This document shows, in pieces, positions 65 through 6,259 of a DNA stretch of 6,259 nucleotides. The notes beneath the pieces are model-generated. The model saw only the letters and a program-made list of their open reading frames with translations. It had not been told where the DNA came from and did not search any database. How positions within the stretch are numbered: the stretch's first letter is position 1; the number at the start of each line of letters is the position of its first letter. The DNA lies in the sequence record NC_007827.1. One strand, written 5' to 3'. This stretch comes from Escherichia phage NC29. The position numbers were made by a program, and so were the translations under genes.

Positions 65-433
65 ATGAAACCCGCTCATCGCCTTACTCATCCAATTCTT
101 GGTTCTTGGTTGTTTAAGTGTCCTGTTTATATTCGTTATGAGTCGCTTCATCATGGTCGCCTTATCAAGGTCCGTGCTGTTCGTGATTTGTCCCCTCGTC
201 AACGATTGATTGCTAATCCTAAGAATTGCTTTGACGTTGTTATTGCTGAAATTGATCTTACTTATGAAACCGTTACTTGGTTTGATTTTATGGATGAGGA
301 ATATGCCGCGTGTACCCCCGAGGTTATGCAGCTTCTCATTTCCTCTATTGACTCTTCTGATGTTATTCGTTCTGTAGAAGACCCGACCGTTGATTCAGGT
401 GATATGGATTGGCTTTATGAAATTGTGGAGTAA
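65..433 (+). CDS. hypothetical protein, H-A spacer ORF1 (122 aa; basic N-terminal half, strongly acidic C-terminal half)
   Basis: ATG at 65 preceded by SD-like TAGGAG (52-57, 7-nt spacing); uninterrupted 122-codon frame ending TAA 431-433; third codon positions strongly T-biased like the core phage genes; no resemblance I can recognise to phiX174 proteins A-H. Confidence 0.6.
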   Translation: MKPAHRLTHPILGSWLFKCPVYIRYESLHHGRLIKVRAVRDLSPRQRLIANPKNCFDVVIAEIDLTYETVTWFDFMDEEYAACTPEVMQLLISSIDSSDVIRSVEDPTVDSGDMDWLYEIVE

Positions 434-436
434 TTT

Positions 437-529
437 ATGGAAACTGTTATCGGAAAATTTATTGCTCTGGCTGTTGTTGCTCTTATGCTGTATGGAATTT
501 CCCGCTTGATTAGTAGGACTTTGAAATGA
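437..529 (+). CDS. hypothetical small hydrophobic peptide, H-A spacer ORF2 (30 aa, METVIGKFIALAVVALMLYGISRLISRTLK)
   Basis: ATG 437 lies 3 nt after the ORF1 stop, with GGAG (427-430) at 6-nt spacing; a hydrophobic core long enough for one transmembrane helix followed by a basic tail; T-biased third positions. Below the 60-aa cutoff of the supplied ORF track, found by hand translation. Confidence 0.4.
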   Translation: METVIGKFIALAVVALMLYGISRLISRTLK

Positions 530-702
530 AGTATTTTAGCCTTGTGGATGAACACTATGCTTATTGCCCTGATTCGCGCATTTTGCACATCACTCGTAGT
601 CGTGTTTCTGACCCTCGGTATGAGCGTCGTTTTCTTACTGATGAGGAGCATCTTGCACTTCTGGATTGGTTGAAAAATCGCCCAACTTATATTAATTCTT
701 GA
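526..702 (+). CDS. hypothetical protein, H-A spacer ORF3 (58 aa, MKYFSLVDEHYAYCPDSRILHITRSRVSDPRYERRFLTDEEHLALLDWLKNRPTYINS)
   Basis: ATG 526-528 overlaps the ORF2 stop TGA 527-529 (ATGA coupling); AGGA (515-518) at 7-nt spacing; T-biased third positions; stop TGA 700-702. Found by hand translation. Confidence 0.5.
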   Translation: MKYFSLVDEHYAYCPDSRILHITRSRVSDPRYERRFLTDEEHLALLDWLKNRPTYINS

Positions 703-761: not shown

Positions 762-2246
762 ATGGCTACTGAAAACTTCTTCGATGTTGTTAAGACCGTC
801 TGGTCCCACGCTACGGCTAAGCACGCCCATCTTCGTATGGCTGTTCAGGTTGATAACCGCAGTCGCCTTCTCTCTGACCTCGTTTATCAGTTGGAAAAAC
901 GTCTTTCTGAAGAAACTCATCTGGATGATGAGACTTATTCCCTTTATGAATCTCAAACTGGTTTCTTGGAAGACCATATGTCTCTGGTTCGGAAGTGTGC
1001 TGCCCAACTTGATAATAGTAACACTATAGACCACCGTACCTCTTTGGATGCCGAATGTGTTTTCCTGTTTGAAATGATTTGCCCGGGTGTTCGCTACGGT
1101 AAAACGTTGAATTCTCTTTGGACTAAGTATGTTGCTCAATGGCCTGAGAAGTTAATTCGTCAAGAGTTAGACATGGTTAAGCCTTTATCCTTTAAGGATG
1201 AGGTTGCTAGGTACATGGAGAAGATGCAGGAAAAAACACGCAAAAATCGCATGACTCAAAAAGTAATTAATGAGATGCGTATTGCTCACCAAAAGGGCTG
1301 GTTTTTCGTATTTGATACTTTGACACTTGCTGATGACCGTTTGCAGGCTTTTAATGAAAACCCCAATGCTCTTCGTGATTATTTCAGGACTGTTGGTCGA
1401 GCTGTTCTGCGCGCTGAAGGTCGTTCGGTTAAGGATTCCTACAACGACTGCTATCGCTATCTTTGTGTGCCGGAGTTTGGAGGTCAGCACGGTCGTCTTC
1501 ATTGGCACGTTGTGCATATGGTGCGGACTCTTCCTTTGGGAAGTCACGACCCTAATTTCGGTCGCAAGGTACGTAATTATCGCCAGATTAACTCGTTCCG
1601 TGGCATGTGGCCTTATGGCTTCACGCAACCGATAGCTGTACGCTATCAACATGATGCTTATTCTCGCAAAGGTTGGTTGTGGCCTGTTGACAAATCAGGT
1701 AAAGCAATGCAGAGTAAGCCCTATCAGGCGGTCGCATGGTATGTGACCAAGTATGTAGCCAAGCAATCTGACCAGCGTCAGAAAGCTATTACTGAGAGAC
1801 AAAAAAAATGCAAGAATCCACTTATGGCAATCTGTCTGAAAAAGGAATTCAGAGTTCGCAGCAGCCGGAAGCTCGGAATGGAGTTACCGTCGATGGCGCA
1901 TCTCAGCAACAAAGTGCTTCTGGAGCTGAGTCGAATCAGCTTCGATTCCAGCCCTCTGTATCAGATAGTGAAAGAGAACGCCAAAAAGCAATTGACCTTG
2001 AACATCGGCGCGCTGCCTTTGCACGTCATTTTGGATGTGCGCCCGGAAGTGAGAAGTATGTTGAAAAATATCCGTCGTTTGATGAAAAAGACACCCGAGT
2101 TCAATTGGCAGAGTTCTATCGCTTCAATGACGGTCACCTTAAAAAATGGGGATATTTCTGATGAAGCACGTCAATACATTATTGATGCAGGAATTACGCC
2201 TTTTGATTTGCGAGCTAAAGCGACTCAAACTTTCGGCGGTAAGTGA
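762..2246 (+). CDS. A: replication initiation protein A (rolling-circle HUH endonuclease)
   Basis: Alignable along most of its length to phiX174 gpA as I remember it: HUH motif in HGRLHWHVVHMVRTLP, twin catalytic tyrosines in YVTKYVAKQSD, and GWFFVFDTLTLADDRL. The track ORF begins at GTG 738; I prefer the first ATG (762, MATENFF...). Stop TGA 2244-2246. Confidence 0.9.
   Translation: MATENFFDVVKTVWSHATAKHAHLRMAVQVDNRSRLLSDLVYQLEKRLSEETHLDDETYSLYESQTGFLEDHMSLVRKCAAQLDNSNTIDHRTSLDAECVFLFEMICPGVRYGKTLNSLWTKYVAQWPEKLIRQELDMVKPLSFKDEVARYMEKMQEKTRKNRMTQKVINEMRIAHQKGWFFVFDTLTLADDRLQAFNENPNALRDYFRTVGRAVLRAEGRSVKDSYNDCYRYLCVPEFGGQHGRLHWHVVHMVRTLPLGSHDPNFGRKVRNYRQINSFRGMWPYGFTQPIAVRYQHDAYSRKGWLWPVDKSGKAMQSKPYQAVAWYVTKYVAKQSDQRQKAITERQKKCKNPLMAICLKKEFRVRSSRKLGMELPSMAHLSNKVLLELSRISFDSSPLYQIVKENAKKQLTLNIGALPLHVILDVRPEVRSMLKNIRRLMKKTPEFNWQSSIASMTVTLKNGDISDEARQYIIDAGITPFDLRAKATQTFGGK
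1015..1044 (+). other. viral (+) strand replication origin, 30-nt gpA recognition/nick site inside gene A
   Basis: CAACTTGATAATAGTAACACTATAGACCAC matches the phiX174 30-nt origin CAACTTGATATTAATAACACTATAGACCAC (from memory) at 28/30 positions, both differences in the AT-rich spacer; the expected nick is between G1021 and A1022. Confidence 0.75.
1224..2246 (+). CDS. A*: A* (in-frame internal restart of A), start codon tentative
   Basis: phiX174 A* begins at an internal Met (MKSRRGF...) about 25 residues before the conserved GWF motif; the equivalent position here is flanked by in-frame ATGs at 1215, 1224 and 1251. None has a convincing SD, so the exact start is not determinable from sequence. 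Confidence 0.3.
   Translation: MQEKTRKNRMTQKVINEMRIAHQKGWFFVFDTLTLADDRLQAFNENPNALRDYFRTVGRAVLRAEGRSVKDSYNDCYRYLCVPEFGGQHGRLHWHVVHMVRTLPLGSHDPNFGRKVRNYRQINSFRGMWPYGFTQPIAVRYQHDAYSRKGWLWPVDKSGKAMQSKPYQAVAWYVTKYVAKQSDQRQKAITERQKKCKNPLMAICLKKEFRVRSSRKLGMELPSMAHLSNKVLLELSRISFDSSPLYQIVKENAKKQLTLNIGALPLHVILDVRPEVRSMLKNIRRLMKKTPEFNWQSSIASMTVTLKNGDISDEARQYIIDAGITPFDLRAKATQTFGGK
1808..2161 (+). CDS. B: internal scaffolding protein B (encoded within A in another frame)
   Basis: 117 aa; C-terminus ...RVQLAEFYRFNDGHLKKWGYF parallels phiX174 gpB ...RIQPAEFYRFHDAEVNTFGYF; acidic, Q/S-rich N-terminal half; entirely nested in gene A. Confidence 0.85.
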   Translation: MQESTYGNLSEKGIQSSQQPEARNGVTVDGASQQQSASGAESNQLRFQPSVSDSERERQKAIDLEHRRAAFARHFGCAPGSEKYVEKYPSFDEKDTRVQLAEFYRFNDGHLKKWGYF

Positions 2247-2322: not shown

Positions 2323-2479
2323 GCAGCTTATGTTTTTGACTAAAGCTGACTTTACCAATGATGATGAAAAATGGCTTAATGCCTTTGGTAATTTGCTCCG
2401 TCAGTGGTTTCAGATTGAGGATTGGAAAGGTAATCACAAAAAATTGCTTGACGATTTGAAAAACAGGCATTATATTTAA
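2273..2479 (+). CDS. C: protein C (DNA replication switch / packaging)
   Basis: ATG 2273 with AGGAG (2261-2265) at 7-nt spacing; 68 aa; ...TKADFTNDDEKWLNAFGNLLRQWFQIEDW resembles phiX174 gpC ...KTDALDEEKWLNMLGTFVKDWFRYESH. The track ORF starts at GTG 2243; ATG 2273 preferred. Confidence 0.8.
   Translation: MLSSTRYYASYRATLTKQLMFLTKADFTNDDEKWLNAFGNLLRQWFQIEDWKGNHKKLLDDLKNRHYI
2448..2476 (+). promoter_or_regulatory. sigma70-like promoter at the 3' end of gene C (pD-like): TTGACG - 17 nt - TATATT
   Basis: -35 TTGACG 2448-2453 (5/6), 17-nt spacer, -10 TATATT 2471-2476 (5/6) overlapping the last codons of C; best promoter match I found in the window; pD lies within C in phiX174. Confidence 0.5.
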
Positions 2480-2712
2480 CTCATAGATAAATGAAGCAGT
2501 GGTGCAAAGTAGTTTATCTAAGTGGTAAGTTCAGTGAAGGGTGACCCGCTCTAAGTAGCTGAAGGGTGTTGGATGTAAGGACTCCGCGATTGACTGGTTT
2601 ATACTGGAACACTATCGGGTCAGTGAAGTGGCTGCTGAGAAATAGCCCTCTAGCTTTACGAAGACTAGGCTACATCGCGAACACCATTGTTACTTTTTTA
2701 TGGAGGATTTAT

Positions 2713-3171
2713 ATGTCTAATCTTGTTGCTACCGATGTTAATTTTGCTACCTCTGTTGCTGCTCTGAAGATGCTTCAGGCTTCTGCTGTTCTTGATATCA
2801 CTGAGGAAGATTTCGATTTTCTGACTGGTGATAAGATTTGGATTGCTACTGACCGCAATCGTGCTCGTCGTTGTGTTGAGGCGTGTGTTTATGGAACGCT
2901 GGACTTTGTTGGATACCCTCGCTTTCCTGCTCCTGTTGAGTTTATTGCTGCCGTCATTGCTTATTATGTTCATCCCGTCAACATTCAGACGGCCTGTCTC
3001 ATCATGGAAGGCGCTGAGTTTACGGAGAACATTGTTAATGGCGTCGAACGTCCGGTTAAAGCCGCTGAACTCTTTGCGTACACCTTGCGTGTTAAGGCTG
3101 GATTCAAAGAAACGGTTCTGAGTGCTGAAGATAATGCTCGTCAGAAACTTCGTGCAAGTGGAGTTATGTAA
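2713..3171 (+). CDS. D: external scaffolding protein D
   Basis: 152 aa; ATG 2713 with GGAGG (2702-2706) at 6-nt spacing; near-identical over long stretches to phiX174 gpD (LQASAVLD.TE.DFDFLT...WIATDR.RARRCVEACVYGTLDFVGYPRFPAPVEFIAAVIAYYVHPVNIQTACLIMEGAEFTEN). Confidence 0.95.
   Translation: MSNLVATDVNFATSVAALKMLQASAVLDITEEDFDFLTGDKIWIATDRNRARRCVEACVYGTLDFVGYPRFPAPVEFIAAVIAYYVHPVNIQTACLIMEGAEFTENIVNGVERPVKAAELFAYTLRVKAGFKETVLSAEDNARQKLRASGVM
2891..3121 (+). CDS. E: lysis protein E (embedded in D, +1 frame)
   Basis: 76 aa; MERWTLLDTLAFLLLLSLLLPSLLIMFIPSTFRRPVSSWKAL... is nearly identical to the phiX174 E N-terminal transmembrane domain, including the conserved Pro21. Confidence 0.85.
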   Translation: MERWTLLDTLAFLLLLSLLLPSLLIMFIPSTFRRPVSSWKALSLRRTLLMASNVRLKPLNSLRTPCVLRLDSKKRF

Positions 3172-3280: not shown

Positions 3281-4564
3281 ATGTCAAATGTACAAACTTC
3301 CGCTGAGCGTATCCCTCATGACCTGTCTCATCTGGTTTTTGAAGCAGGCAAAATTGGTCGTTTAAAAGTTGTTTCTTGGACTCCTGTTGTTGCAGGTGAT
3401 TCTTTTGAGCTTGATATGATTGGCGCTATTCGCCTCTCCCCGCTTCGTCGTGGTCTTGCTGTTGACTCTCGCGTTGACTTGTTCACGTTTTATGTTCCTC
3501 ATCGTCATGTATATGGTGAGCAGTGGATTGAGTTTATTAAGGAAGGTGTCAATGCTCCACCGTTGGCTCCTGTTCAGTGCTCTCGTGGTTGGGATAGTGC
3601 GCAGTATCTCGCTACTATTCCGTCTTCTAACTTAAAGGTTCCTAAGTTCCTTCATCAAGGTTACTTGAACATTTACAATAACTATTTTAAAGCTCCGTGG
3701 ATGGATGACTTGACTTATGCCAACCCATCTAATATGGAAGGTGAAGATGTTCGTTTTGGTGTTCGTGCATGTAATTTAAAAACTATCTGGACTGCTCCGC
3801 TTCCTCCAGATACTGAGACTTCTCATTCTATGGAGACCGAGACCAACTCCATTGACATTATGGGTTTACAGGCCGCTTATGCTCAATTACATACCGAGCA
3901 GGAGCGTGATTACTTCATGACTCGTTATCGTGATATTGTTAACGAATTTGGTGGTAGTACTTCTTATGATGCGGATAATCGTCCTTTGCTTGTTATGCAT
4001 TCTGAGTTCTGGGCCTCAGGCTATGACGTCGACGGCACCGACCAAAGCTCTCTCGGTCAGTTCTCCGGTCGTGTTCAGCAGACGTTTAAGCATTCAGTAC
4101 CGCGATTCTTCTGTCCTGAGCATGGCACTATGTTCACACTCGCATTGGTCCGCTTCCCTCCGACTCATGAAATGGAGATGCATTACTTAGTTGGTAAAGA
4201 AAATTTGACTTATACTGATCTGGCTTGTGATCCTGCTTTGATGGCTAACTTGCCTCCGCGTGAGGTTAATATGTCTCAGTTCTTCCATTCTGGAAGTGCT
4301 AGTGCTAAGTTTAAGATCGCTGAGGGTCAGTGGTATCGTATGCAGCCTGACCGCGTTGCATTGCCGTATAACTATCTTGATGGTTTTCCGTTCTATAGTG
4401 CGATTCCGTCTCATGATATTAAGCAGCGTGTTCTGGTTAATACTGATAACTATGATGAGGTTTTCCAGTCTATGCAGCTTGCACACTGGAATATGCAGAC
4501 TAAGTTTAACTGCACGATTTATCGTAATATGCCGACCACTCGTGATTCTATTATGACCTCTTGA
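3281..4564 (+). CDS. F: major capsid protein F
   Basis: 427 aa; long blocks match phiX174 gpF (MSN.QT.AER.PHDLSHL, LRLSPLRRGLA.DS.VD.FTFYVPHRHVYGEQWI, QGYLNIYNNYFKAPWM, SIDIMGLQAAYA.LHT.QERDYFM.RYRD, SYDADNRPLLVM, GYDVDGTDQ.SLGQFSGRVQQT.KHSVPRFF.PEHGTMFTLALVRFPPT, TTRDSIMTS). Confidence 0.95.
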   Translation: MSNVQTSAERIPHDLSHLVFEAGKIGRLKVVSWTPVVAGDSFELDMIGAIRLSPLRRGLAVDSRVDLFTFYVPHRHVYGEQWIEFIKEGVNAPPLAPVQCSRGWDSAQYLATIPSSNLKVPKFLHQGYLNIYNNYFKAPWMDDLTYANPSNMEGEDVRFGVRACNLKTIWTAPLPPDTETSHSMETETNSIDIMGLQAAYAQLHTEQERDYFMTRYRDIVNEFGGSTSYDADNRPLLVMHSEFWASGYDVDGTDQSSLGQFSGRVQQTFKHSVPRFFCPEHGTMFTLALVRFPPTHEMEMHYLVGKENLTYTDLACDPALMANLPPREVNMSQFFHSGSASAKFKIAEGQWYRMQPDRVALPYNYLDGFPFYSAIPSHDIKQRVLVNTDNYDEVFQSMQLAHWNMQTKFNCTIYRNMPTTRDSIMTS

Positions 4565-4600: not shown

Positions 4601-5146
4601 ATGTTTCAAGTTTATGTAGCTAAGCATGTTGCTCCTTTTACTTCTATGAACCGTACCTTTTCTATCTCTCCTGCTGCTGCCCCGCAGGTTGTCAATTCTG
4701 GTGAGATTGTTGCAGGTCGTTCTACTTTTCGTATTGCTTCCTCTATTGGTTCTGCTTCTAATGGTAATGGTTTCGCATTCGTTCAGATGATGGACCCTAA
4801 CTCTCCTGATTCTCAACAGGTTTTCTCTGTTGCTGCGTCGCTATCTTTTAGTGTTGACTCGAATTATGTTCCTTGCGTTGTTCGTTTTGAAAGTAGTTTC
4901 TCTCAGCCTGGTCAATTTGCTATTGCTGAGGCTGATTTTATTCCGGTTGAGTCGTCAGCTCTTTCTGCTCGTGCGCTTAGCGTTCGTGATTGTGTTACTG
5001 TTGATGTTAAGCCTCGCGCTGAAGGTAATAATGTTTTTGTTGGACTGTTCTTGTCTTCTGCCGCCGCTAATGCTGGTAATGTTACTGGTGTCATTTCTAT
5101 GGCTCAGGTTGACCATGAAGTTACAGCTTTGCAGCCTCTTAAATAA
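4601..5146 (+). CDS. G: major spike protein G
   Basis: 181 aa from ATG 4601 (track ORF starts at TTG 4595); MFQ... N-terminus and CVVRFESS, DCVT.DV.PR..GNNV.VG, and C-terminal LQPLK match phiX174 gpG. Confidence 0.9.
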   Translation: MFQVYVAKHVAPFTSMNRTFSISPAAAPQVVNSGEIVAGRSTFRIASSIGSASNGNGFAFVQMMDPNSPDSQQVFSVAASLSFSVDSNYVPCVVRFESSFSQPGQFAIAEADFIPVESSALSARALSVRDCVTVDVKPRAEGNNVFVGLFLSSAAANAGNVTGVISMAQVDHEVTALQPLK

Positions 5147-5281: not shown

Positions 5282-6259
5282 ATGTTAGGTGCCGTTGTTG
5301 GTGGTATTGCTTCAGCCTTAGCCGGTGGAGCAGCTTCTAAGTTGTTTGGTGGTAAGCCTGCCTCTCAGGCCGCTACCGAATCCGCTGGCCTTTCTAATGG
5401 TCAAGGTGTTATTGGTATGGACCAAGATGCCGGTATTCAGTCCGCTATTCAGGGTTCAAATGTCCCAAATGGTCAGATTCCCGCTCCTACTACTACAGGT
5501 GGCGTTATGTCTGATGCTGGTAATATGATTAAGAATGCTGGTAAAGATTTGCTTGATGGTGTTATGACTGCCGGTAGTGACCGTGTTAAGCAGGCTTTGA
5601 TTGACAGATTGGGTGGTAATAATGCAAAGAGACAAGGAAAAGCAACCCGTGATTACTTGGCTGCAGCCTTCCCTGAACTCAATGCATGGGAACGTGCTGG
5701 AGCTGTTGCTTCCGGCTCCGGCTTGGAATCTTCCAGTCAGGACCAGCAGAAAGAGTTGATGCGAATGCAGCTGGACAATCAGAAAGATATTGCGAAGATG
5801 CAGATGCAGAATAATTTGCAGATTGCTGGTATTCAGTCCGCTACTTCTCGTCAAAATACGAAGGATTCTGTTTATGCTCAGAATGAGATGCTTCAGTACA
5901 ATCAACGTGAGTCACAGGCACGTGTTGAGTCTATCCTTGCCAACACTAACCTTACGGATAAACAGGCTACCCATGAAATCATGAGGATGGCCCTTACTCG
6001 TGCTCAGGAGACTGGTCAGCATTTGACTAACTCTCAGATTATTGCTTTGGAGAAAAAGGTTTATGCAGAAATTGGAAAAATTCATCAAGATACTCAAAAC
6101 TCTCGCTATGGTAGCTCTCAAGTTACTGCTGCGGCGAAAGATGTTACGAATATGATTACCGATGCCGCCTCAGGTGCTGCTGATTGGGCCTCTCAGCAAT
6201 GGAATTCGTTCTTCAAGGATGGTAAGTCTAATGGCATTCCTCTTAACACCAGAAAATAA
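5282..6259 (+). CDS. H: minor spike / DNA pilot protein H
   Basis: 325 aa; N-terminus M.GA..GGIASALAGGA.SKLFGG and internal TRDYLAAAFPELNAWERAGA, IAGIQSATSRQNTKD.VYAQNEML.Y match phiX174 gpH; AGGAG-like AAGGAG 5266-5271 upstream; stop TAA is the last three bases of the window. Confidence 0.9.
   Translation: MLGAVVGGIASALAGGAASKLFGGKPASQAATESAGLSNGQGVIGMDQDAGIQSAIQGSNVPNGQIPAPTTTGGVMSDAGNMIKNAGKDLLDGVMTAGSDRVKQALIDRLGGNNAKRQGKATRDYLAAAFPELNAWERAGAVASGSGLESSSQDQQKELMRMQLDNQKDIAKMQMQNNLQIAGIQSATSRQNTKDSVYAQNEMLQYNQRESQARVESILANTNLTDKQATHEIMRMALTRAQETGQHLTNSQIIALEKKVYAEIGKIHQDTQNSRYGSSQVTAAAKDVTNMITDAASGAADWASQQWNSFFKDGKSNGIPLNTRK

What the first reader, a model, noticed from the sequence alone, without database searches (positions are those of the whole stretch)
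1801..1808. A8 homopolymer at the B start codon, inside the A reading frame
Eight consecutive A residues (1801-1808) encode Lys-Lys in gene A and form the spacer and first base of the gene B ATG. Such tracts are prone to polymerase slippage; a +/-1 slip would truncate A (essential) while altering the B start context. It is probably just a tolerated mutational hotspot, but it is also a potential site of transcriptional slippage.
Basis: seen in the sequence. Interest (0 to 1): 0.2.

Follow-up and report, generated by a model that had tools for sequence, protein, structure and literature searches.

The report
A-run at microvirus gene B start
The eight A's are real, but they are an ordinary by-product of Gln-Lys-Lys codons in replication gene A overlapping the ribosome-landing spacer and ATG of scaffold gene B in an alpha3/WA13-like microvirus, and relatives break the run with silent A-to-G changes, so it is not a dedicated slippage signal.

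Summary
The window is a complete alpha3/WA13-like microvirus genome (Alphatrevirus, about 93% identical to phage NC3). The A8 run sits exactly at 1801-1808. In gene A it reads cAA AAA AAA (Gln-Lys-Lys). Its last A is the A of the gene B ATG (1808), and the other seven A's are B's SD-to-start spacer.

It is the only homopolymer of 8 or more bases in the window, but it is not statistically unusual. An A run of 8 or more appears in 18% of dinucleotide shuffles and in 12.5% of synonymous shuffles of gene A.

In 19 distinct relatives the 8-nt length never varies, but the run is unbroken in only 10. Six have AAAAGAAA and three have AGAAAAAA. Both G's are silent third-codon changes in A. The only third position that never varies is the A of B's ATG. 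So selection acts on protein A and on B's start codon, not on the homopolymer.

No frameshift-stimulating structure follows the tract. Published E. coli data put A8 at the detection threshold for RNA-polymerase slippage, and unstimulated A_AAA_AAA at roughly 0.1-0.5% ribosomal frameshifting.

Verdict: an ordinary, already-known kind of gene-overlap start context, probably helping B initiation by keeping the site A-rich and unpaired.

A more interesting side observation is a 233-nt structured non-coding insert upstream of gene D, shared with unrelated dsDNA coliphages.

The parts
1801..1808 (+). A8 homopolymer. It is bases 2-3 of Gln codon CAA plus Lys AAA and Lys AAA of gene A. It is also positions -7 to +1 relative to the gene B ATG.
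   Evidence: Sequence; translations; only homopolymer of 8 or more in the window.
762..2246 (+). Gene A, the replication initiator (HUH endonuclease), 494 aa. The double-Tyr motif YVTKYVAK lies about 17 codons upstream of the tract.
   Evidence: Pfam Phage_GPA E 2.7e-58; annotation of relatives; translation.
1808..2161 (+). Gene B, the internal scaffolding protein, 117 aa. It is nested in gene A in the -1 (+2) frame.
   Evidence: Pfam Phage_B E 1.5e-47; same ATG annotated in NC3, WA13, alpha3, St-1 and others.
1794..1798 (+). GAGAG, a weak Shine-Dalgarno-like element for B. It is embedded in A codons GAG AGA (Glu-Arg), 9 nt upstream of the ATG.
   Evidence: Invariant in 19 relatives. The other genes of the window have stronger GGAG/AGGA motifs. 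Pairing strength to 16S rRNA is my inference.
1802..1808 (+). A_AAA_AAA, a formal -1 slippery heptamer in the A frame. The -1 frame is the B frame.
   Evidence: Frame arithmetic and simulated products. The heptamer is broken in 9 of 19 relatives. There is no downstream structure.
1793..1795 (+). TGA stop in the B frame. It makes ATG 1808 the first possible B start and limits any A-to-B frame fusion to shifts after this point.
   Evidence: Sequence; the ORF list starts B at 1808.

Best explanation
The A8 run is a coincidental product of two overlapping constraints in an Alphatrevirus genome.

The constraints:
- Gene A must encode Arg-Gln-Lys-Lys-Cys at this point.
- Gene B, read in the -1 frame, must start at an ATG whose A is the third base of the second Lys codon. 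That codon is therefore forced to be AAA, not AAG.
- Only two positions remain free, the third bases of Gln (1802) and of the first Lys (1805). In this genome both happen to be A.

What it does: the run serves as the 7-nt A-rich part of the spacer between a weak Shine-Dalgarno element (GAGAG) and B's ATG. An oligo-A spacer keeps the initiation site single-stranded and is favourable for 30S binding in E. coli. It therefore probably helps B, which is needed in many copies, to be translated from inside the A message.

What it is not: it is not a programmed slippage or frameshift signal. Any RNA-polymerase or ribosome slippage there is low-level noise.

Shown versus inferred:
- Shown: anatomy, frames, the variation pattern in relatives, absence of a stimulatory structure, predicted accessibility.
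- Inferred: the benefit for B initiation, and the low slippage rate, which is taken from published E. coli reporter data and was not measured on this phage.
For: (1) Frames and identity are established, and by the annotations.

(2) Across 19 distinct Alphatrevirus sequences the 8-nt segment has three states: AAAAAAAA (10), AAAAGAAA (6) and AGAAAAAA (3).
- Both G's fall on A-frame third positions and are synonymous (CAA to CAG, AAA to AAG).
- The first and second codon positions, and the A of B's ATG, are invariant.

(3) Two of the three third-codon positions in the tract vary. The background is 38-52% variable third positions in gene A. Synonymous variation is therefore not suppressed.

(4) On the gene-A neighbour-joining tree, by my parsimony count, at least two changes at 1805 and one at 1802 are needed.

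(5) No indel occurs anywhere in the gene A coding sequence among the relatives.

(6) Gene-A codon usage gives P(CAA AAA AAA) = 0.12. It is about 0.25 once the last AAA is forced by the ATG; that figure is my arithmetic from the counts. The other three Lys-Lys pairs in A are all AAA-AAG.

(7) Among the ten genes, B has the most A-rich spacer and a weak SD.

(8) The tract is predicted 97% unpaired, the SD 81% and the ATG 85%.

(9) A FlowSeq study in E. coli found that oligo-A or A-rich SD-start spacers give high translation, and recommends them (PMC7264876).

(10) phiX174, G4 and ID18 also have A-rich, but not homopolymeric, spacers before the B ATG.
Against: - No expression data exist for this phage, so the contribution of the A-run to B translation is inferred.
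- The run is retained in the whole WA13-like clade except ID21. This could reflect weak selection, but equally shared ancestry at about 90-97% identity.
- Relatives with a G at -4 or -7 are viable phages, so any benefit of a perfectly uniform A-run over AAAAGAA is at most small.
- In silico, AGAAAAAA lowers predicted accessibility (0.66 against 0.97) when placed in this window's background. This hints that the spacer composition matters somewhat.
Confidence: 0.86

Rival explanations
1. Programmed or usefully exploited transcriptional slippage. E. coli RNA polymerase adds or drops an A on the A8 tract. A9 transcripts would translate as an A(1-349)::B(1-117) fusion of 466 aa, and A7 transcripts as a 358-aa truncated A.
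For: - The run has the minimal length at which any E. coli RNAP slippage on poly(A) was detectable in GFP reporters, and A7 gave 0.39% insertions by NGS (PMC6260861).
- Some IS elements appear to use A8 (PMC1088944).
- The +1A product is a clean in-frame fusion to an intact B ORF.
Against: - The uninterrupted run is absent from 9 of 19 relatives, including alpha3, phiK, St-1 and ID21. It is broken by silent substitutions exactly where neutrality would allow them.
- In most bacteria selection against, or use of, slippage becomes evident at 9 nt, not 8 (PMC1088944).
- E. coli RNAP prefers T runs, and A8 is only at its detection threshold for A-run slippage.
- B has its own start codon and needs no fusion.
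Confidence: 0.04
2. Programmed -1 ribosomal frameshifting on the in-frame heptamer A_AAA_AAA (1802-1808). Ribosomes translating A would shift into the B frame and make the same A-B fusion.
For: - The heptamer is in the correct register in the A frame, and the -1 frame is open through all of B.
- A_AAA_AAA is among the motifs giving more than 0.10% frameshifting without stimulators in E. coli (PMC4066793).
Against: - No downstream stimulatory structure: nucleotides 1809-1900 fold no better than shuffles (z = +0.69).
- The SD-like GAGAG ends only 3 nt before the heptamer. From my own knowledge of dnaX-type sites, not checked here, -1 stimulation needs about 10-14 nt.
- The heptamer is destroyed in 9 of 19 relatives.
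- Unstimulated heptamers gave at most about 10 times a 0.055% background.
Confidence: 0.03
3. Contingency or mutational-hotspot locus. Replication slippage at A8 generates frequent indels that switch A and B expression or create population heterogeneity.
For: Homopolymers are generally indel-prone. AAAAAAA is under-represented in E. coli genes in all frames (PMC4066793).
Against: - Any indel frameshifts gene A, which is essential in phiX174-type phages (established knowledge), downstream of the catalytic tyrosines.
- None of the 19 relatives differs in length here or anywhere else in the A coding sequence.
- The variable-length pattern scans found only 8-nt spacers.
Confidence: 0.05

Closest known systems
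Gene B translation initiation region nested in gene A of Bullavirinae (phiX174, G4, alpha3, WA13)
   Same: - Same gene pair, with the same -1 frame relationship.
- Same ATG as annotated in NC3, WA13, alpha3 and St-1.
- An A-rich spacer precedes the ATG in every genus: phiX174 ctaggagctaaagaATG, G4 ctagggaataaagaATG.
   Different: - phiX174 and G4 have a stronger SD (AGGAG / AGGGA) and a mixed spacer.
- The WA13-like clade has a weak GAGAG and a pure A7 spacer.
- alpha3, phiK, St-1 and ID21 have AAAAGAA.
Programmed transcriptional slippage sites (Thermus thermophilus dnaX A9, Shigella mxiE T9, IS-element A9/A8 runs)
   Same: A homopolymeric A run inside a coding sequence, with a second ORF in the frame reached by a one-base insertion (PMC1088944).
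   Different: - The run is 8, not 9 or more.
- It is not conserved as an uninterrupted run.
- The downstream ORF (B) has its own start and does not depend on the shift.
- The host polymerase is a poor slipper on A runs.
E. coli dnaX / IS911-type -1 programmed ribosomal frameshift sites (A_AAA_AAG plus SD and stem-loop)
   Same: An in-frame X_XXY_YYZ heptamer made of Lys codons, with the -1 frame open.
   Different: - Ends in A rather than the far more efficient G.
- No downstream stem-loop or pseudoknot.
- The SD-like element is not at the spacing that, from my own knowledge, stimulates -1 shifts.
- The heptamer is not conserved.

Membership tests
Bullavirinae A/B overlapping gene pair (B start region inside A) | Outer ORF is the Phage_GPA replication initiator | tested here: met
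   PF05840 E 2.7e-58
Bullavirinae A/B overlapping gene pair (B start region inside A) | Inner ORF is the Phage_B internal scaffolding protein, in the -1/+2 frame of A | tested here: met
   PF02304 E 1.5e-47. (1808-762) mod 3 = 2. phiX174 has the same offset.
Bullavirinae A/B overlapping gene pair (B start region inside A) | B start codon homologous to the annotated B start of characterised relatives | tested here: met
   The aligned ATG is identical in 19 Alphatrevirus sequences and is annotated as the B start in 11 GenBank records.
Programmed transcriptional slippage site | A/T homopolymer long enough for efficient slippage by the transcribing polymerase (9 or more in most bacteria) | tested here: inconclusive
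   The run is 8. That is the threshold of detectability for E. coli RNAP on poly(A) (PMC6260861). Nine is the typical length at which selection appears (PMC1088944).
Programmed transcriptional slippage site | Uninterrupted run conserved among homologues despite synonymous freedom | tested here: not met
   9 of 19 relatives interrupt it with synonymous G.
Programmed transcriptional slippage site | Heterogeneous run length in mRNA but not in DNA | not testable with these tools
   Requires cDNA and DNA deep sequencing.
-1 programmed ribosomal frameshift site | In-frame X_XXY_YYZ heptamer | tested here: met
   A_AAA_AAA at 1802-1808 in the A frame.
-1 programmed ribosomal frameshift site | Downstream stimulatory stem-loop or pseudoknot 5-9 nt after the heptamer | tested here: not met
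   Nucleotides 1809-1900: MFE -20.6 against shuffle mean -22.8, z = +0.69. Pseudoknots were not explicitly searched.
-1 programmed ribosomal frameshift site | Heptamer and synonymous sites conserved across homologues | tested here: not met
   The heptamer is broken in 9 of 19 relatives, and 2 of the 3 third positions vary.
Phase-variable / contingency homopolymer | Run-length polymorphism among related genomes | tested here: not met
   Variable-gap pattern scans (N{5,11}) of the viral and metagenome collections and of all fetched loci returned only 8-nt spacers. There are no indels in the A coding sequence.

The most novel reading that the evidence does not exclude
In the WA13-like clade only, the A8 / A_AAA_AAA tract lets roughly 0.1-1% of gene A expression continue into the B frame, by a +1A transcript or a -1 ribosomal shift. 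The product would be a 466-aa protein joining the complete HUH nuclease core of A (through the YVTKYVAK tyrosines) to the full internal scaffolding protein B. Such a protein could in principle tether the replication and packaging initiator to the procapsid interior.
Probability: 0.03. Interest if true: 0.55.

Novelty: already known. Interest (0 to 1): 0.07.

Why it matters
For the finding itself, very little. It shows how overlapping genes can create conspicuous low-complexity runs with no dedicated function. The pattern of silent substitutions in relatives is a quick and decisive test that separates such by-products from recoding signals.

If the low-probability reading were true, it would add an eleventh or twelfth protein, a replication-scaffold fusion, to one of the best-studied minimal genomes.

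The side observation may be the more useful lead from this window. A covarying structured leader sits upstream of gene D and is shared between an ssDNA microvirus and dsDNA Kuravirus and Vequintavirinae phages. That points to exchange of a non-coding regulatory cassette across virus realms.

Tried and rejected
- **Statistical excess of the run.** Rejected. An A run of 8 or more occurs in 18% of dinucleotide shuffles and 12.5% of synonymous shuffles of gene A.
- **Frameshift-stimulating structure downstream.** None found. Local folding around the start is also no better than shuffles.
- **A sigma-70 promoter or terminator overlapping the tract, for example a P_B analogue.** The consensus scan of 1400-2000 found none.
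- **Length variants of the tract.** Variable-gap pattern scans of IMG/VR and of the metagenome contigs returned only 8-nt versions.
- **An Rfam family or tRNA anywhere in the window.** None found; the only hit was Chlorobi-1 at E = 0.88, which is noise.
- **Whether the window might be one of the AI-generated phiX-like genomes.** The paper concerns phiX174-like designs, does not mention 6259 or NC3, and cites WA13 and alpha3 only as tree references. No link was established.
- **For the side observation, homologues of the C-D insert elsewhere.**
  - No match in complete E. coli genomes or in plasmids.
  - The 19-mer core had no hit in IMG/VR.
  - Of the 76 viral-contig and 9 bacterial-genome motif hits, only L077 showed real, partial homology; the rest were chance.

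Full report
**What the window is.** A megablast of the whole 6259-nt window against GenBank phages gives full-length matches to the alpha3/WA13 group of Bullavirinae (genus Alphatrevirus).
- The best match is coliphage NC3 at 92.9% identity, followed by ID32, NC35, WA13, WA45 and ID21 at 91.7-92.5%. alpha3, phiK and St-1 are at about 85%.
- Gene order and coordinates follow the annotated relatives: A 762-2246, B 1808-2161, K, C, D 2713-3171, E, J, F 3281-4564, G 4601-5146, H 5282-6259.
- Pfam confirms A as the Phage_GPA replication initiator (E 2.7e-58) and the nested ORF as scaffold protein B (E 1.5e-47).

**Checking the observation.** The sequence at 1791-1810 is actgagagac aaaaaaaatg, so eight A's occupy 1801-1808 exactly as reported.
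- In the A frame, 1800-1811 reads CAA AAA AAA TGC, giving ...T-E-R-Q-K-K-C.... The tract is therefore two bases of a Gln codon plus two Lys codons.
- The last A (1808) is the A of the B ATG.
- The B frame is closed by TGA at 1793-1795, so 1808 is the first possible B start. The homologous ATG is the annotated B start in eleven GenBank relatives.
- It is the only homopolymer of 8 or more bases in the window. It is not statistically remarkable: an A run of 8 or more appears in 18% of dinucleotide-preserving shuffles, a run of 8 or more of any base in 50%, and an A run of 8 or more in 12.5% of synonymous shuffles of gene A alone.

**What relatives show.** I collected 19 distinct Alphatrevirus sequences. 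These were 13 GenBank genomes, IMG/VR UViGs and two metagenome contigs, and the set included scans with a pattern that allowed the tract to be 5-11 nt long.
- Every sequence has exactly 8 nt between GAGAGAC and TGC. Gene A contains no indel at all within its coding region.
- The 8-mer has three states.
  - AAAAAAAA (10): window, NC3, ID32, NC35, WA13, WA45, ID62, MG945254, NC28, SKEH01002404.
  - AAAAGAAA (6): alpha3, phiK, St-1, Lilleven, ID21, one UViG.
  - AGAAAAAA (3): two UViGs and NFYT01000619.
- Both G's lie on third-codon positions of gene A and are synonymous (AAA to AAG Lys; CAA to CAG Gln).
- All first and second codon positions are invariant. So is the third position 1808, which is the A of B's ATG.
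- Two of the three third positions in the tract therefore vary. The background is 38-52% variable third positions in gene A.
- On a gene-A neighbour-joining tree, by my parsimony count, at least two changes at 1805 and one at 1802 are required.
- This is the signature of purifying selection on protein A and on B's start codon. There is no selection for, and no strong selection against, an uninterrupted homopolymer.

**Why the run exists.**
- The second Lys codon must be AAA, because AAG would turn B's ATG into GTG.
- Only the Gln codon and the first Lys codon are free. With gene A's nearly even usage (CAA/CAG 13/12, AAA/AAG 19/20), the chance that both end in A is about one in four (my arithmetic from those counts). 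This is in line with 10 of 19 relatives.
- The other three Lys-Lys pairs of gene A are all encoded AAA-AAG. The AAA-AAA here is therefore explained by the overlap with the ATG.

**Likely function of the segment.**
- B's ribosome binding site has to be written in A's codons. The SD-like element is only GAGAG (Glu-Arg codons GAG AGA), which is weaker than the GGAG/AGGA motifs of C, D, F, G, H and J.
- B has by far the most A-rich spacer of the ten genes, with 8 A's in positions -10 to -1.
- Partition-function folding of +/-60 nt predicts the tract 97% unpaired, the SD 81% and the ATG 85%.
- A FlowSeq study in E. coli found oligo-A and A-rich SD-start spacers among the best translated and recommends them (PMC7264876).
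- phiX174, G4 and ID18 also have A-rich, though not homopolymeric, spacers before the B ATG.
- I therefore infer that the A-rich spacer helps B initiation. The viability of relatives with G at -4 or -7 shows that perfect uniformity is not needed.

**Slippage alternatives.** The tract is formally an in-frame -1 slippery heptamer, A_AAA_AAA (1802-1808), and the -1 frame is the B frame.
- Both a -1 ribosomal shift and a +1A transcript would yield a 466-aa fusion of A(1-349) to the whole of B. That part of A includes the catalytic YVTKYVAK tyrosines.
- A -1A transcript yields a 358-aa truncated A.
- Nothing supports a programmed event.
  - The 92 nt downstream fold no better than shuffles (z = +0.69).
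  - The SD-like GAGAG ends 3 nt before the heptamer. From my own knowledge of dnaX-type sites, -1 stimulation needs about 10-14 nt.
  - The heptamer and run are broken in 9 of 19 relatives.
- Published E. coli data set the expected noise level.
  - Unstimulated heptamers gave 2-10 times a 0.055% background, and A_AAA_AAA is listed among those above 0.10% (PMC4066793).
  - E. coli RNA polymerase gave no detectable reporter rescue on A runs shorter than eight. It made 0.39% insertions at an A7 run by NGS, and it prefers T runs (PMC6260861).
  - In most bacterial genomes selection on such runs becomes evident at nine (PMC1088944).
- A contingency-locus reading is excluded by the complete absence of length variation.

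**Verdict on the finding.** The cautious interpretation (tolerated, not special) is supported, and the slippage idea is not. The feature belongs to an already known arrangement, B's initiation region nested in gene A of Bullavirinae. Interest is low.

**Side observation.** The window is 60-220 nt longer than any relative, because the C-D intergenic region is 233 nt (2480-2712) instead of about 30-76 nt.
- None of the fetched Alphatrevirus sequences has this insert.
- Positions 2493-2649 are 75-79% identical (E down to 4e-23) to unannotated intergenic DNA of Kuravirus podophages (MN03, XT18/32/73, Bas89, FS2B, SDYTW1). Positions 2469-2539 match Vequintavirinae myophages (UPEC06, LTH01) more weakly.
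- A six-sequence alignment shows an invariant core, GAAGCAGTGRTGCAAAGTAG, followed by hairpins.
- RNAalifold predicts 34 pairs, 11 of them with compensatory double changes.
- In the pair-count control 94% of cells are paired. Slid controls give 0-2 pairs with compensatory changes, and 0 of 500 shuffles reach the observed covariation.
- There is no Rfam family and no tRNA. There are no homologues in complete E. coli genomes or plasmids.
- Of 76 viral-contig and 9 bacterial-genome motif hits, only one viral contig (L077) shows real, partial homology.
- The element begins right after a conserved promoter-like TTGACG-17-TATATT at 2448-2476 and ends about 60 nt before an SD and the D ATG. In MN03 and XT32 it likewise lies about 70 nt upstream of a gene.
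- It looks like a structured 5' leader or non-coding cassette exchanged between ssDNA and dsDNA coliphages. Its function is unknown, and I followed it up only partly.

Noticed in passing
window 2480-2712 (core about 2491-2655): The C-D intergenic region is 233 nt, against about 30-76 nt in all relatives, and none of the fetched Alphatrevirus sequences has the insert. It is 75-79% identical to unannotated intergenic DNA of Kuravirus podophages, and partly to Vequintavirinae. Six homologues show strong compensatory covariation: 34 pairs, 11 with double changes, 94% of cells paired, slid controls 0-2. There is no Rfam family and no match in E. coli genomes or plasmids. It is a candidate novel structured leader or non-coding cassette upstream of gene D, shared between ssDNA and dsDNA coliphages.
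   Followed up: partly
window 2448-2476: Promoter-like TTGACG-17-TATATT (10 of 12 matches) at the end of gene C, immediately upstream of the insert. The -35 is conserved in all relatives, and the -10 region aligns with TACATT in relatives and with TAAATT in Kuravirus MN03. It is probably the P_D equivalent, which would make the insert the 5' leader of the D mRNA.
   Followed up: partly
L001 (NC3), about 2470-2515: NC3 carries three tandem copies of a 15-nt unit (CTCTCTACATTTGAG) in its C-D intergenic region, where WA13 has one. The C-D spacer therefore seems to be a hotspot for length change in this genus.
   Followed up: no
window 1799 (and the homologous position in Lilleven and UViG_3300045988_012961): A silent AGA-to-AGG change in gene A turns B's SD-like GAGAGA into GAGAGG in two relatives. 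This would strengthen pairing with 16S rRNA, and it shows that B's ribosome binding site is tuned through A's synonymous sites.
   Followed up: no
window 1839-1844, 1983-1988, 2085-2090 (Lys-Lys at gene A residues 360, 408, 442): The other three Lys-Lys pairs in gene A are all encoded AAA-AAG. Only the pair overlapping B's ATG is AAA-AAA.
   Followed up: yes
window 65-433 and 526-702 (+ strand): ORFs of 122 aa and 58 aa lie in the long H-A intergenic region. Homologous ORFs are annotated as hypothetical proteins in phage Lilleven and marked in MG945254, but are not annotated in the 2006 GenBank genomes. Whether they are expressed is unknown.
   Followed up: no
window 1400-2000: No sigma-70 consensus match was found upstream of B where phiX174 has its P_B transcription start, about 176 nt before the B ATG. 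The P_B equivalent in this clade is not obvious from the consensus scan.
   Followed up: no
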